Assembly (NCBI GenBank): GCA_035221665.1
Contig: CM069133.1
Coordinates: 109,678,001-109,742,000, forward strand
DNA length: 64,000 bases
Source: Okamejei kenojei
Lineage: Eukaryota
Direction of reading: 5' to 3'
Shown here: positions 2,772-55,800 of the stretch, one piece after another
Position numbering within the stretch: position 1 is the stretch's first letter
How the letters are laid out: every line of letters begins with the position of its first letter
Notes under the pieces: model-generated
The model's database searches: none
Told to the model about the DNA's origin: nothing
The model's input: the letters and a program-made list of their open reading frames with translations, nothing else
Position numbers and translations under genes: made by a program

Positions 2772-3050
2772 GAGTCCCACTGCAAATTGGAGGAGCAACA
2801 CCTCATATTTTGCTTGGGTAGTTTACACCCCAGCGGTATGAACATTGACATTTTCAATTTCAGGTAGTCCTTGCTTTCTCCCTCCCTCCCCTTCCCAGCT
2901 CTCCTACAGCCCACTGTCTCCGCCCCCACCCTGCTTCTTCCCACCCCCACATCAGTCTGAAGAAGGGTCTCGACCCGAAATGTCACTTATTCCTTCGCTC
3001 CATAGATGCTGCCTCACCCACTGAGTTTATCCAGCATTTTTGTCTACTTT
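2772..3050 (+). mobile_element. Penelope-like element 3' fragment (GIY-YIG C-terminus, 3' UTR, hammerhead motif)
   Basis: 2772-2867 reads ESHCKLEEQHLIFCLGSLHPSGMNIDIFNFR*, typical of PLE endonuclease ends. Followed by a C-rich tract and the hammerhead core at 2957-2984. Confidence 0.75.
2954..2987 (+). ncRNA. minimal type I hammerhead ribozyme motif (PLE-associated)
   Basis: AGT-CTGAAGA-A-GGGT(CTCG)ACCC-GAAA-TGTC-ACT; helix I AGT/ACT. Confidence 0.65.
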
Positions 3051-3369
3051 CAATAGCTTCTCTTTATTCACCATCGCAAATTCCAGGTCTGTCAACTGCA
3101 TCTGTAAATGGGAAATGTAGAGCATTCTCATTTCTGGTTTGGGTTGAGTTCAAGGAGCATCATAAACATGACAGACCATTGATGCTGTATTTCAACCCTA
3201 TAACACCACAATCTGCCCACTATTGCCACATATTTTAACAATTTGCTACCATCCTTTTATTGTTTTAGTCAATGTAAAATGTGATGTCATATGATAAGAG
3301 AATCCAGATTAAAACATCTAAAATTTATGAATTTAACACTCTTGATGGATTTAAAATTACTTTTACTTA

Positions 3370-52800: not shown

Positions 52801-55800
52801 TTTCACATCCTTTCCATGAAAGAAACCGTCATTGTAACATTGTCTTTGTTTCGACCTCAGCGTATCTTCACTAAGGAAGACATAAATAATTTGCTGGAAA
52901 TAGCAGGGGATCGTGGGTCAAATGAGATGGAGGAAATGAGTGAAATCCAGGTTAGCCGGAAAGTGGTGTTAGGTAAATCGAATGGATTAAAGGCCGATAA
53001 ATCCCCAGGGCCAGATAGGCTGCATCCCAGGGTACTTAAGGAAGTAGCCCCAGAAATAGCAGATGCCTTAGCGATAATTTTTCAAAACTCTTTAGATTCT
53101 GGAGTAGTTCCTGAGGATTGGAGGGTAGCTAATGTAACCCCACTTTTTAAAAAGAGAGGGAGAGAGAAAGTGCGGAATTACAGACCAGTTAGTCTAACAT
53201 CGGTAGTGGGGAAACTGCTAGAGTCAGTTATTAAAGATGGGATAGCAGCACATTTGGAAAGTGGTGAAATCATTGGACAAAGGGTACACAAAAAGCTGGA
53301 GAAACTCAGCGGGTGCAACAGCATCTAAGGAGCGAAGGAGATAGGCGACGTTTCGGGTCGAGACCCTTCTTCAGCATGGATTTACGAAAGGTAAATCATG
53401 TCTGACGAATCTTATTGAATTTTTTGAGGATGTAACTAGTAGAGTGGATAAGGGAGAAGCAGTGGATGTGTTATATCTGGACTTTCAGAAGGCTTTCGAC
53501 AAGGTCCCACACAAGAGATTGGTATACAAACTTAAAGCACACGGTATTGGTGGTTCAGTATTGATGTGGATAGAGAACTGGCTGGCAGACAGGAAGCAAA
53601 GAGTAGGAGTAAACGGGTCCTTTTCAGGATGGCAGGCAGTGACTAGTGGGGTGCCGCAAGGCTCAGTGCTGGGACCCCAGCTATTTACAATATACATTAA
53701 TGATTTAGACGAGGGAATTAAATGCAACATCTCGAAGTTTGCGGATGACACGAAGCTGGGGGGCAGTATTAGCTGTGAGGGGGATGCTAGGAGGCTGCAG
53801 GATGACTTGGATAGACTGGGTGAGTGGGCAAATGCATGGCAGATGCAGTATAATGTGAATAAATGTGAGGTTATCCTCTTTGGTGGCAAAAACAGGAAGG
53901 TAGACTATTATTTGAATGATGACCGATTAGGAAAAGGGGAGATGCAGCGAGACCTGGGTGTTATGGTACACCAGTCATTGAAAGTAGGCATGCAGGTGCA
54001 GCAGGCCGTGAAGAAAGTGAATGGTATGTTGGCATTCATAGCAAAAGGATTTGAGTACAGGGAGGTTCTACTGCAGTTGTACAGGGTCTTGGTGAGACCA
54101 CACCTGGAGTATTGCGTACAGTTTTGGTCTCCTAATCTGAGGAAAGACATTCTTGCCATAGAGGGAGTACAGAGAAGGTTCACCAGACTAATTCCTGGGA
54201 TGGCACGTCTTCCATATGAAGAAAGACTGGATAGACTCGGCTTGTACTCGCTGGAATTTAGAAGATTGAGGGGTGATCTCATAGAGACTTACAAAATTCT
54301 TAAGGGGTTGGACAGGCTAGATGCAGGAAGATTGTTCCCGATGTTGGGGAAGTCCAGGACAAGGGGTCACAGTTTAAGGATAAGGGGGAAGTCTTTTAGG
54401 ACCGAGATGAGAAAATTGTTTTTCACACAGAGAGTGGTAAATCTGTGGAATTCTCTGCTACAGAAGGTAGTTGAGGCCAGTTTGTTGGCCATATTTAAGA
54501 GGGAGTTGGATGTGGCCCTTGTGGCTGAAGGGATCAGGGGGTATGGAGAGAAGGCAGGTACAGGATACTGAGTTGGATGATCAGCCATGGTCATATTGAA
54601 TGGTGGTGCAGGCTCGAAGGGCCGAATGGCCTGCTCCTGCACCTAATTTCTATGTTTCTATCTGCTTTGATCTTGCTCCAGACTCGACCATTTCAATGCC
54701 CTTCAGATAGATTAACCACTTTCCATAACTTCATCTTATCCACAAAGCTGCAATCCACATATTAATCATCAACTCTAAGCTCATGGCCAGGAGGATTTTT
54801 ATCATCCTCCTTAATATCATCTTTGACGCAGTCTTTTTTAAATTGATTCCCCTTTAATGAATTGACATGTTAAAGGTGCTCTAAAATGTGGATTTCTTGG
54901 TGAATGAGAGCTAAGTATAAATCTGAAATATTTCCAGTATACCAATAGGGGCACAGTGTTTACAGTGAGGGCCTTGCTTGCCGCCTTATGCAAAGAATGC
55001 TCAGAACCTGTCAAACTCAAAAATATGAGGCTTTTTGTAAAACTGTTCAAATTACATTTAAAAGTTAATTTGCTCATGAAGAAATTAGCAAAAAAACTGT
55101 ACGTGTCTTCATTTTTGTGCAAAGAATGATCCAGTCAAATTAAAGAATGACCATAGCAAGCTAATGTATTGATTTTTTTCAAAACCACATTTAGGTATTG
55201 GTCCTAGCACTGATGACGGTGGAGCTTTTTGGGATGATGGGCCTCATTGGAATAAAACTGAGTGCAGTTCCTGTAGTGATCCTCATTGCCTCCGTTGGAA
55301 TTGGGGTGGAATTCACTGTACACGTTGCTTTGGTATGTGAAAGGTCCTTCAATTGAGTGTCCATTTTGACAAAAGCATGCAAGAAATGTATACACTTTTT
55401 CTGGAAATACCTCTGAGCTACTGTATTCTCAGGATTTAACAGGAATAAAAATGAACTACCTATGGGTAGAAATTCTTAATAGAAAATTAAGTGCTTGTAG
55501 TCTGAGACATAGGCAAACCAAAACAATGTTTTGATTATTTTTAGGCAACATGTATGATTGTTTAATTTGGACGTGACTGAAGTAGGTTAGGATAGAATCT
55601 CCATGTAATTTAGACGAAAACTTGTGCATGTCAGTAATTCTTTGGGGAAATTCCTGGAGGAAGTCTACCATTGGAAAACATTTATAAAAATTACTTTGCA
55701 TTAAAAGAAATCATGAAATATTGCCCACACTAAATGGAAATTTGAAGATATGGGTTTTAATTTTAAAAAAGTAATGTCTCTGCTTAAAATATTGGTACAA

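What the first reader, a model, noticed from the sequence alone, without database searches (positions are those of the whole stretch)
2772..53374. A dense family of Penelope-derived repeats carrying minimal hammerhead ribozyme cores throughout ptch1 introns
Seen: about a dozen related repeats share a centre reading CTGAAGA-A-GGGT(CTCG)ACCC-GAAA-YGTC. Cores are intact at 2957(+), 3373(+) and 53347(-), and stem II is disrupted at 43359(+). Degenerate copies lie at ~2470, 5430, 5971, 11960, 24240, 35610, 38775 and 40261. The copy at 2957 sits directly downstream of a PLE GIY-YIG C-terminus. Known: CUGANGA/GAAA/NUH is the hammerhead catalytic core, and Penelope-like retroelements in many animals encode such minimal type I hammerheads with a palindromic helix III (ACGU) that are thought to cleave as dimers. 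Inference: this lineage has a high-copy ribozyme-bearing PLE family. Two sense copies only ~415 nt apart in intron 2 (2957, 3373) could pair in cis and cut the ptch1 pre-mRNA. The general phenomenon is known; its extent here and any intronic cis-dimer activity may not be.
Basis: partly seen in the sequence, partly recalled or inferred. Interest (0 to 1): 0.75.

Follow-up and report, generated by a model that had tools for sequence, protein, structure and literature searches.

The report
Penelope hammerhead relics in ptch1 introns
The introns of a patched-1 gene, likely from a skate, hold many short broken ends of a Penelope-like jumping gene that carry a known minimal self-cutting-RNA (hammerhead) motif; most copies are decayed and likely do not cut the gene's RNA, so this is an ordinary example of a known class.

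Summary
Real but ordinary. The window holds 19 arms (14 insertions; 9 sense, 10 antisense to ptch1) of a Penelope-like element (PLE) end. PLE origin is well supported: endonuclease C-terminus at 2771-2867, head-to-head arm pairs, a ~37-nt tail on one arm only (4 of 5 pairs), 10-15-bp target duplications, and one 88-bp insertion with an empty paralogous site. Three copies fit a strict minimal-hammerhead descriptor (0 in 100 null windows). 'Intact' is overstated: 2957 and 3373 both read AUGU instead of the ACGU palindrome, and 53374 is antisense with no helix I. Non-CpG core bases are conserved, but CpG core bases, including G12, are changed in 11 of 12 copies, with no covariation: selection on masters, decay after insertion. 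A cis-dimer is drawable (one site has a 5-bp cross helix) but costs about 15 kcal/mol in the folding model. Related genomes carry the family in enormous amounts, so ptch1 looks like background. The scan found this kind before in other shark genomes. One lead: 6 of 19 arms start 0-4 nt before CUGA, and the same boundary is prominent in relatives.

The parts
2771..2867 (+). last ~31 codons and stop of a PLE RT/GIY-YIG ORF; 5' truncation point of this copy at ~2771
   Evidence: BLASTP 17/31 identical to P0013, E 8e-11; family contigs run on upstream of 2771 with other sequence (loose ends)
2868..2956 (+). C/T-rich pLTR spacer ending CATCAG|T; looks like a 3' splice site and also like an initiator (TCAGT); neither tested
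   Evidence: sequence; analogy to the D. virilis Penelope intron abutting helix I
2954..2987 (+). minimal hammerhead motif, sense to ptch1: helix I 3 bp, helix II 4 bp, helix III AUGU (CpG-decayed); predicted cut after 2984
   Evidence: family majority is C at 2981 and 2987
2988..3052 (+). 3' part of the pLTR, without tail
3370..3462 (+). short copy that starts at AGT|CUGA; core and helix II complete, helix I 2 bp, helix III AUGU; 3' end blurred
2375..2568 (+). old copy with C/T tract; G12 lost, helix II 2 of 4 pairs (left edge approximate)
5362..6050 (.). old head-to-head pair: - arm 5362-5867 with ORF C-terminus relic, + arm ~5870-6050; arms 66% identical; both motifs broken
11850..12050 (-). 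copy with C/T tract and tail; G12 and A13 lost (edges approximate)
24150..24327 (.). head-to-head pair without a CUGA box; tail on the - arm only; arms 78% identical
35111..35187 (-). old 3' fragment with tail, no core
35544..35755 (.). young head-to-head pair: - arm starts at AGT|CUGA (G12 lost), + arm starts inside helix II and carries the 37-nt tail; 15-bp target duplication at 35529-35543 and 35756-35770; folds as one long hairpin
38682..38803 (-). short copy starting at the core, with tail; 3-nt deletion in the CUGANGA box and G12 lost
40257..40350 (+). short copy starting at the core; A13 lost
40506..40588 (.). very short head-to-head pair (3' ends only), tail on the + arm, 15-bp target duplication at 40491-40505 and 40589-40603
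43238..43448 (.). head-to-head pair: + arm has all core letters but helix II 2 of 4 pairs and no helix I; - arm carries the tail; 10-bp target duplication at 43228-43237 and 43446-43455; folds as one long hairpin
44996..45071 (-). very old copy, core broken
53283..53374 (-). young copy: 88 bp inserted into a LINE RT ORF, joined by 4-nt (CTGA) and 2-nt microhomology, no target duplication; full core with ACGU but no helix I; antisense to ptch1
   Evidence: empty site at 31761-31807 in a 96% identical LINE copy
10705..10896 (+). first ptch1 exon found in the window (PTCH1 residues 132-195); fixes host gene and strand
   Evidence: later exon 51300-51575

Best explanation
These repeats are short, 5'-truncated and often head-to-head insertions of the terminal repeat of a Penelope-like retrotransposon, likely made by its reverse transcriptase starting just downstream of the hammerhead motif, so that the motif rides along as a passenger and likely decays without cutting ptch1 RNA. 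Shown: ORF C-terminus, spacer, motif, two classes of 3' end (about 60-66 and about 100-104 nt after the cleavage site), tail on one arm of inverted pairs, AT-rich target duplications or microhomology joins, CpG decay of core bases. Inferred: the two 3' classes are the two internal priming sites measured for the anole element; inverted pairs arise when both ends of a staggered double-strand cut are primed and the two cDNAs join; the core was kept by selection in the master elements, not in these copies. Because priming begins only 90-130 nt downstream of CUGA, almost every truncated copy contains the motif, which explains its density.
For: Peptide match to RT/GIY-YIG proteins. Tail on exactly one arm in 4 of 5 inverted pairs, 37 nt at 35.6 kb, as described for PLEs. 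Target duplications of 15, 10 and 15 bp at 3 of 12 sites tested, against 5 of 2000 random pairs reaching 10 or more. Empty site for the 53.3-kb copy. Non-CpG core 7 of 117 changed, CpG core 19 of 48, downstream 140 of 660 (by hand, with the one-base slip in c5452 corrected, 6 of 117 and 16 of 48, 15 of the 16 being C>T or G>A). Only 1 of 12 copies keeps both core CpGs. No covariation beyond shuffles (141 of 500 reach the score). 9 sense against 10 antisense arms. Summed depth 12-19 million on the motif against 15-40 on unique flank in relatives. Published minimal PLE hammerheads cleave weakly even as dimers, and the anole one only with its protein.
Against: No full-length element lies in the window, and the GIY-YIG Pfam hits of the matching proteins are below cut-off (E 0.047-0.048). 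Core conservation over downstream positions is significant and cannot by itself be split between master and copy selection; the copies are related, so the p-values are loose. The 2957 and 3373 copies keep every catalytic letter, and 3368-3372 is fully complementary to 2985-2989, giving one cross site a 5-bp helix I. Cleavage itself was not measured.
Confidence: 0.86

Rival explanations
1. The 2957 and 3373 copies pair in cis in the ptch1 pre-mRNA and cut it, most plausibly after 2984, with the 3373 copy as enzyme strand.
For: Both are sense, 416 nt apart, with all catalytic letters and a 4-bp helix II. The cross structure is nested and one site has a perfect 5-bp helix I (3368-3372 with 2985-2989; pair probability about 0.05-0.06 in two of three folding windows). 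The 2957 insertion's right junction also appears in one relative's contig (piece 16).
Against: Shared helix III is A-U, U.G, G.U, U-A, 4.3 kcal/mol weaker than ACGU; constrained folds cost 14.8-18.2 kcal/mol (better site) and 16.6-23.0 (other site). The 5-bp helix rests on a private C>T at 2987 (family has C in 94-98% of laid depth) and on flank bases, so it looks accidental. Even designed dimers of this class cleave weakly.
Confidence: 0.04
2. The short copies that begin at AGT|CUGA are a separate non-autonomous, SINE-like element of 90-130 nt with its own masters, rather than independent truncations of long PLE RNA.
For: 6 of 19 arms start within 0-4 nt of CUGA; loose ends with AT-rich, low-agreement flanks at 2954/2955 are among the six top loose-end rows listed for each of four runs.
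Against: The six copies differ in their downstream sequence types, so several lineages share the boundary; five other arms run on through the C/T tract, two into the ORF. No Pol III box or separate promoter was tested.
Confidence: 0.07
3. The family's motif is itself already a non-functional relic (helix I only 2 bp), and its conservation reflects another role such as promoter, splice or protein-binding signal.
For: Position 2.3 is A in 8 of 12 copies and 1.3 is C in 10 of 12, leaving U-A/U.G, G-C and an A.C mismatch; ribozyme mutants did not affect insertion by the anole element in vitro.
Against: Conserved positions are those of the hammerhead consensus, with the extra base at 9.1 and G10.1-C11.1; a 2-bp helix I is described in the active D. 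virilis Penelope. This rival does not conflict with PLE origin.
Confidence: 0.03

Closest known systems
Minimal type I hammerheads (min-HHR) of metazoan Penelope-like elements (Cervera and de la Pena 2014, PMC4209133)
   Same: CUGANGA and GAAA boxes, extra base between 9 and 10.1, G10.1-C11.1 pair, no loop 3 with palindromic 15.2-16.2, position in the terminal repeat, mostly single motifs from truncated copies, pairs on opposite strands 100-700 bp apart.
   Different: Helix II is 4 bp (7-8 bp in the Schistosoma families) and helix I only 2-3 bp. In the two of four parts I read, no cartilaginous fish is named; the counts given for coelacanth and Xenopus (about 4,000 and 9,000) are far below the abundance implied here.
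Poseidon element of Anolis carolinensis, PAc (Frangieh et al. 2024, PMC11167929)
   Same: Hammerhead at the pLTR/ORF junction; two adjacent internal priming sites that define an optional 30-40-nt tail; AT-rich targets; cuts both strands.
   Different: PAc was tested as full-length protein and RNA; here only ends remain. In the parts read I saw no statement on a preferred 5' boundary of short copies; its Fig. S2 is an image I could not see.
Penelope elements of Adineta vaga and D. virilis (PMC3846280, PMC2377424, PMC8557442)
   Same: Inverted 5'-truncated pLTR, tail on one end, 8-10-bp target duplications or microhomology joins without duplication, palindromic inverted junctions.
   Different: Units here are far shorter (80-210 bp for most) and carry almost no ORF; an intron in the pLTR is only suggested by sequence.
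Non-LTR retrozymes of animals (Li, Clavereau and Pollet 2026, 10.64898/2026.07.22.740005)
   Same: PLE-derived, type I hammerhead, present in the one chondrichthyan sampled, many dispersed monomers, 42-44% of Xenopus copies intronic.
   Different: Retrozymes are head-to-tail arrays with a motif in each unit; the window's copies are single or head-to-head.

Membership tests
min-HHR of metazoan PLEs | catalytic boxes CUGANGA, GAAA and UH | tested here: met
   all letters present in 2957, 3373, 43359, 53374 and, by hand, 5452; with a 4-bp helix II in 3 copies, 0 in 100 null windows
min-HHR of metazoan PLEs | unpaired base between A9 and 10.1; G10.1-C11.1 pair | tested here: met
   A at 9.1 in 11 of 12; G-C in 8 of 12
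min-HHR of metazoan PLEs | palindromic 15.1-16.1 without loop 3 | tested here: met
   family majority ACGU (C at 2981 in 67-85% of laid depth); ACGU in 4 of 12 window copies, not in 2957 or 3373
min-HHR of metazoan PLEs | helix I (4-5 bp in Schistosoma families, 2 bp in D. virilis) | tested here: inconclusive
   first two pairs form in 5 of 12 copies, three pairs in 1 of 12: at the short end of the described range
min-HHR of metazoan PLEs | compensatory changes in helices | tested here: inconclusive
   no excess over shuffles in 12 arms; too few and too decayed copies to test the family
min-HHR of metazoan PLEs | self-cleavage as a dimer | not testable with these tools
   folding energies only
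Penelope-like elements (EN+) | ORF with RT and C-terminal GIY-YIG endonuclease | tested here: inconclusive
   only the last 27-33 residues are in the window; they match C-termini of P0011-P0013, which show RT-like motifs (recognised from memory) and sub-threshold GIY-YIG hits
Penelope-like elements (EN+) | hammerhead in the terminal repeat downstream of the ORF | tested here: met
   ORF stop at 2867, CUGA at 2957; same order on the - strand at 5867-5452
Penelope-like elements (EN+) | 30-40-nt tail on one end only | tested here: met
   4 of 5 inverted pairs; 37 nt at 35.6 kb
Penelope-like elements (EN+) | inverted 5'-truncated copy joined head to head | tested here: met
   5 of 14 insertions
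Penelope-like elements (EN+) | short target duplication or microhomology join | tested here: met
   15, 10, 15 bp at 3 of 12 sites tested; microhomology without duplication at 53.3 kb
Penelope-like elements (EN+) | full-length partial-tandem copy; retained spliceosomal intron | not testable with these tools
   no genome is held for this window; no RNA reads
Non-LTR retrozymes | head-to-tail array with a hammerhead in each unit | tested here: not met
   2957 and 3373 share only ~74 nt and the DNA between them is not repeated; rare ~40-nt tandem joints exist in relatives (table 5c)

The most novel reading that the evidence does not exclude
Short PLE insertions in this lineage have a fixed 5' boundary at the first bases of hammerhead helix I (AG|UCUGA): reverse transcription that starts 90-130 nt downstream runs off, or is stopped at, a defined point of the RNA (a transcription start in the TCAGT initiator-like motif, or a spliceosome-bound 3' splice site). 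The resulting strong-stop-like cDNA is integrated alone or folded back into head-to-head hairpins, giving hundreds of thousands of hammerhead-headed mini-elements.
Probability: 0.3. Interest if true: 0.45.

Novelty: new member of a known kind. Interest (0 to 1): 0.2.

Why it matters
As found, it extends a class described in 2014 to a likely skate genome with a very high copy load, which matters mostly for repeat annotation and as a warning that intronic minimal hammerheads there are background. It also gives genomic support (tail length, one-armed tails, target duplications) for the internal two-site priming measured in vitro for the anole element. If the fixed 5' boundary holds genome-wide, it would mark the start or a road-block of the PLE RNA and make the unexplained formation of PLE 5' ends and inverted junctions directly testable. 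If the cis-dimer did cut ptch1 pre-mRNA, it would be a case of chance-paired transposon ribozymes acting on a developmental gene, but the evidence is against that.

Tried and rejected
No whole genome is held, so the genome-wide count and sense/antisense test were not possible. Rfam found no hammerhead family at E up to 1; its 3 hits (MIR1858, MIR2118, Plastid-psbJ-4 at 35.5-35.7 kb) are below gathering score and reflect the inverted pair's hairpin. Pattern scans found 0 matches in viral contigs and metagenome contigs. Word-based homology search with the 41-residue peptide found nothing; the full scan gave 10 hits, of which P0003, P0005, P0008 and P0010 align plausibly; P0001 is a repeat artefact, P0002's Pfam result was seen but not followed, and P0004, P0006, P0007, P0009 were not examined. 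No RNA holder was listed for the locus, which says nothing about expression; all laid data were contigs, so RNA ends could not be seen. No splice joint 2863-2956 is among the 15 joints shown of 169: uninformative. No target duplication was found at 9 of 12 sites tested. Single-copy folds are no more stable than shuffles (z -0.83, 0.15, 0.25). Lunse et al. 2017 is not held; I saw its title only. Rejected: retrozyme array (no head-to-tail units); truncation by ribozyme cleavage as the main source of short copies (their 5' ends lie about 30 nt upstream of the cut site; at most one arm, 24241, starts near it); ptch1-specific enrichment (window density is in line with the abundance in relatives, by inference).
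Full report
Observation. A motif scan finds CTGAAGA-A-GGGT(CTCG)ACCC-GAAA at 2957(+), 3373(+) and 53374->53347(-), and a version with broken stem II at 43359(+). A strict descriptor (core, 4-bp helix II, GAAA-NN-UH) gives exactly the first three, against 0 in 100 Markov-simulated windows. 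A profile built from ten window stretches finds 19 arms at E up to 1 and none in the reversed window; they group into 14 insertions, 5 of them head-to-head pairs. Nine arms are on the + strand and ten on the - strand. The host gene is PTCH1 on the + strand: 10705-10896 matches residues 132-195 and 51300-51575 residues 965-1056 of solved PTCH1. That 2957 and 3373 lie in intron 2 is inferred (exon numbering recalled; two recalled exon-2 motifs gave no fitting hit). Rfam has no hammerhead hit here.

What the repeat is. The 33 residues upstream of the 2957 copy were searched against 1.84 billion proteins: 10 hits at E up to 0.001, the closest 81% identical over the C-terminal 31 residues of P0003, a predicted receptor of a skate with this fragment appended; hence my inference that the host is a skate or ray. 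That tail of P0003 finds P0011-P0013, which show reverse-transcriptase-like motifs (recognised from memory) followed by a GIY-YIG-like segment (Pfam E 0.047-0.048 in 2 of 3, below cut-off). The window peptide aligns to the end of P0013 (17 of 31 identical, E 8e-11). A second, degraded copy of the ORF end lies at 5800-5867(-). The insertion anatomy is that described for PLEs (passages of PMC8557442 and PMC3846280). Arms end either about 60-66 or about 100-104 nt after the cleavage site; in 4 of 5 inverted pairs exactly one arm has the longer end, a 37-nt difference at 35.6 kb. This matches the tail between two internal priming sites of the anole Poseidon element (PMC11167929, parts 1-2 of 4 read). 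Three of 12 sites tested have target duplications of 15, 10 and 15 bp, 70-80% A+T; 5 of 2000 random pairs reach 10 or more. The 53.3-kb copy sits in a LINE RT ORF (Pfam RVT_1) whose 96% identical paralogue at 30.5-32.2 kb lacks it: 88 bp were added with no duplication, joined by CTGA at the 5' side and CT at the 3' side.

Abundance. Contigs of four related runs were laid on 2620-3340 at 82% likeness: 91,176, 96,817 and 80,920 pieces in three large runs and 9,120 in a small one; summed depth is 12-19 million over 2945-3019 in the large runs against 15-40 on unique flank where it is covered. The tool warns that this is no copy number, and not all differences were counted; I take it only as an order of 10^5 or more. 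The window's own density is 14 insertions in 64 kb, about 220 per Mb, which would give a similar total in a genome of 2-3 Gb (size recalled). Nothing suggests that ptch1 is enriched.

State of the ribozyme motifs. In the alignment of the 12 arms that include a CUGA box (7 arms without it were left out), non-CpG core positions are changed in 7 of 117 cells, downstream positions in 140 of 660 and the four CpG positions (C11.1, G12, C15.2, G16.2) in 19 of 48. One copy (5452) is shifted by one base; corrected by hand the counts are 6 of 117 and 16 of 48, and 15 of the 16 are C>T or G>A. G12 is lost in 5 of 12 copies, and only 53374 keeps both CpGs. Helix II pairs in 83% of cells and helix I in 46%, with no covariation beyond shuffles (141 of 500 shuffles reach the score). 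No copy is a complete family-type ribozyme: 2957 and 3373 read AUGU where the family has ACGU (C at 2981 in 67-85% of laid depth); 53374 has ACGU but lost the 5' strand of helix I at insertion and is antisense; 35636 and 43359 are locked in hairpins of -136 to -168 kcal/mol on either strand.

The cis-dimer. It can be drawn as a nested structure. In its favour, 3368-3372 is exactly complementary to 2985-2989, so the site made of the 3373 core and the 2957 GUC has a 5-bp helix I, with pair probabilities of 0.05-0.06 in two of three folding windows and 0.0005 in the third. Against it, the shared helix has tandem G.U pairs (4-nt duplex +2.6 against -1.7 kcal/mol), its probability is 0.0000 in all three windows, and forcing the site costs 14.8, 14.9 and 18.2 kcal/mol; the other site costs 16.6-23.0. 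The favourable helix depends on a C>T at 2987 that 94-98% of laid family depth lacks and on two flank bases. The model has no tertiary or protein term and I had no active dimer as control, so these are relative warnings, not rates. Published minimal PLE hammerheads show no cleavage as monomers and low cleavage as dimers (PMC4209133, parts 1-2 of 4 read); the anole one cleaves only with its protein, is not needed for insertion in vitro, and no RNA-seq reads ended at its cut site. I put cleavage of ptch1 RNA that matters at about 4%.

Of the 12 arms with a CUGA box, five run on into the C/T-rich spacer, six start within 0-4 nt of C3 (3373, 35636, 38801, 40261, 43359, 53374) and one is unclear. 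Six of 19 ends in a 5-nt window has probability 1e-4 under uniform and 5e-4 to 2e-2 under exponential truncation models, but if related copies count once (four) it is not significant (0.05-0.44). In relatives, loose ends at 2954 (all four runs; 484, 516, 605 and 113 contigs) and 2955 (one run; 527) have low-agreement flanks, AT-rich in the three large runs, unlike those at 2951-2952, which continue in C/T-rich sequence (24 of 1,525 rows shown; the hypervariable spacer also makes alignments stop near here). The boundary is about 30 nt upstream of the cleavage site, so ribozyme cutting does not make it. The sequence there, (C/T)n-CATCAG|TCTGA, fits both an initiator (TCAGT, consensus recalled) and a 3' splice site; in D. 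virilis Penelope a 75-bp intron lies 46 bp after the start (passages of PMC2377424) and its 3' end maps to the start of helix I. The two youngest inverted pairs, of different sequence types, join the full-core arm at this boundary to a partner starting inside helix II. I found no statement on such a boundary in the passages read, nor in the listings of searches; Fig. S2 of PMC11167929 is an image and supplements of the other papers were not read, so it may be in print.

Comparison and verdict. It works like, and is filed as, a minimal hammerhead of a Penelope-like element; the tested features are met except that helix I is at the short end and cleavage is untested. It is not a retrozyme array (10.64898/2026.07.22.740005, part 1 and passages read), though that preprint reports the class in one chondrichthyan. 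The review PMC6765202 (passages) summarises the same picture. Six earlier notes of this scan reached the same verdict on other genomes, several of them sharks; they are unchecked and I do not count them as support. Novelty: new member of a known kind. Interest 0.2; the fixed-boundary reading has probability about 0.3 and would deserve about 0.45.

Noticed in passing
window:52801-54568 (+) and 30488-32203 (-): Two 96% identical LINE copies (CR1-like by recall); the 53-kb one has a 407-residue open RT stretch (Pfam RVT_1) and is split by the 88-bp PLE insertion, which dates that insertion after the LINE burst.
   Followed up: partly
window:45900-46931 (-): An open stop-to-stop frame of 344 residues matching Tc1/Sleeping Beauty-type transposase domains inside a ptch1 intron; possibly a young DNA transposon.
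   Followed up: no
window:35544-35755, 43238-43448, 24150-24327: The inverted pairs would form near-perfect RNA hairpins of 60-80 bp in the ptch1 pre-mRNA whichever strand is read: likely substrates for A-to-I editing or small-RNA processing; they cause false Rfam miRNA hits.
   Followed up: partly
window:2868-2956, ~2375-2469, ~5870-5970 (+): Sense copies place a C/T tract followed by CAG in the first intron of the window, which could act as a cryptic 3' splice site; a predicted skate receptor (P0003) ends in this element's ORF fragment.
   Followed up: no
window:2953-2995 (relatives' contigs, tables 5, 5c): Rare joints return from about 2986-2995 to 2952-2955, i.e. head-to-tail repeats of about 40 nt made of the hammerhead motif alone (depth 90-420 against millions); these would be the best candidates for active dimers.
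   Followed up: no
window:2953-2955 (relatives' contigs, table 7): The consensus of the loose letters just before 2954 ends in G in all four runs although the flank is AT-rich; compatible with a copied cap, with fold-back junctions or with a helix-I-complete subfamily. Not resolved.
   Followed up: no
window:2645-2719: A separate short repeat of moderate abundance in relatives (summed depth 800-1,700).
   Followed up: no
window:42537-42688: Assembly gap of 152 N, about 550 nt from the 43.3-kb inverted pair.
   Followed up: no
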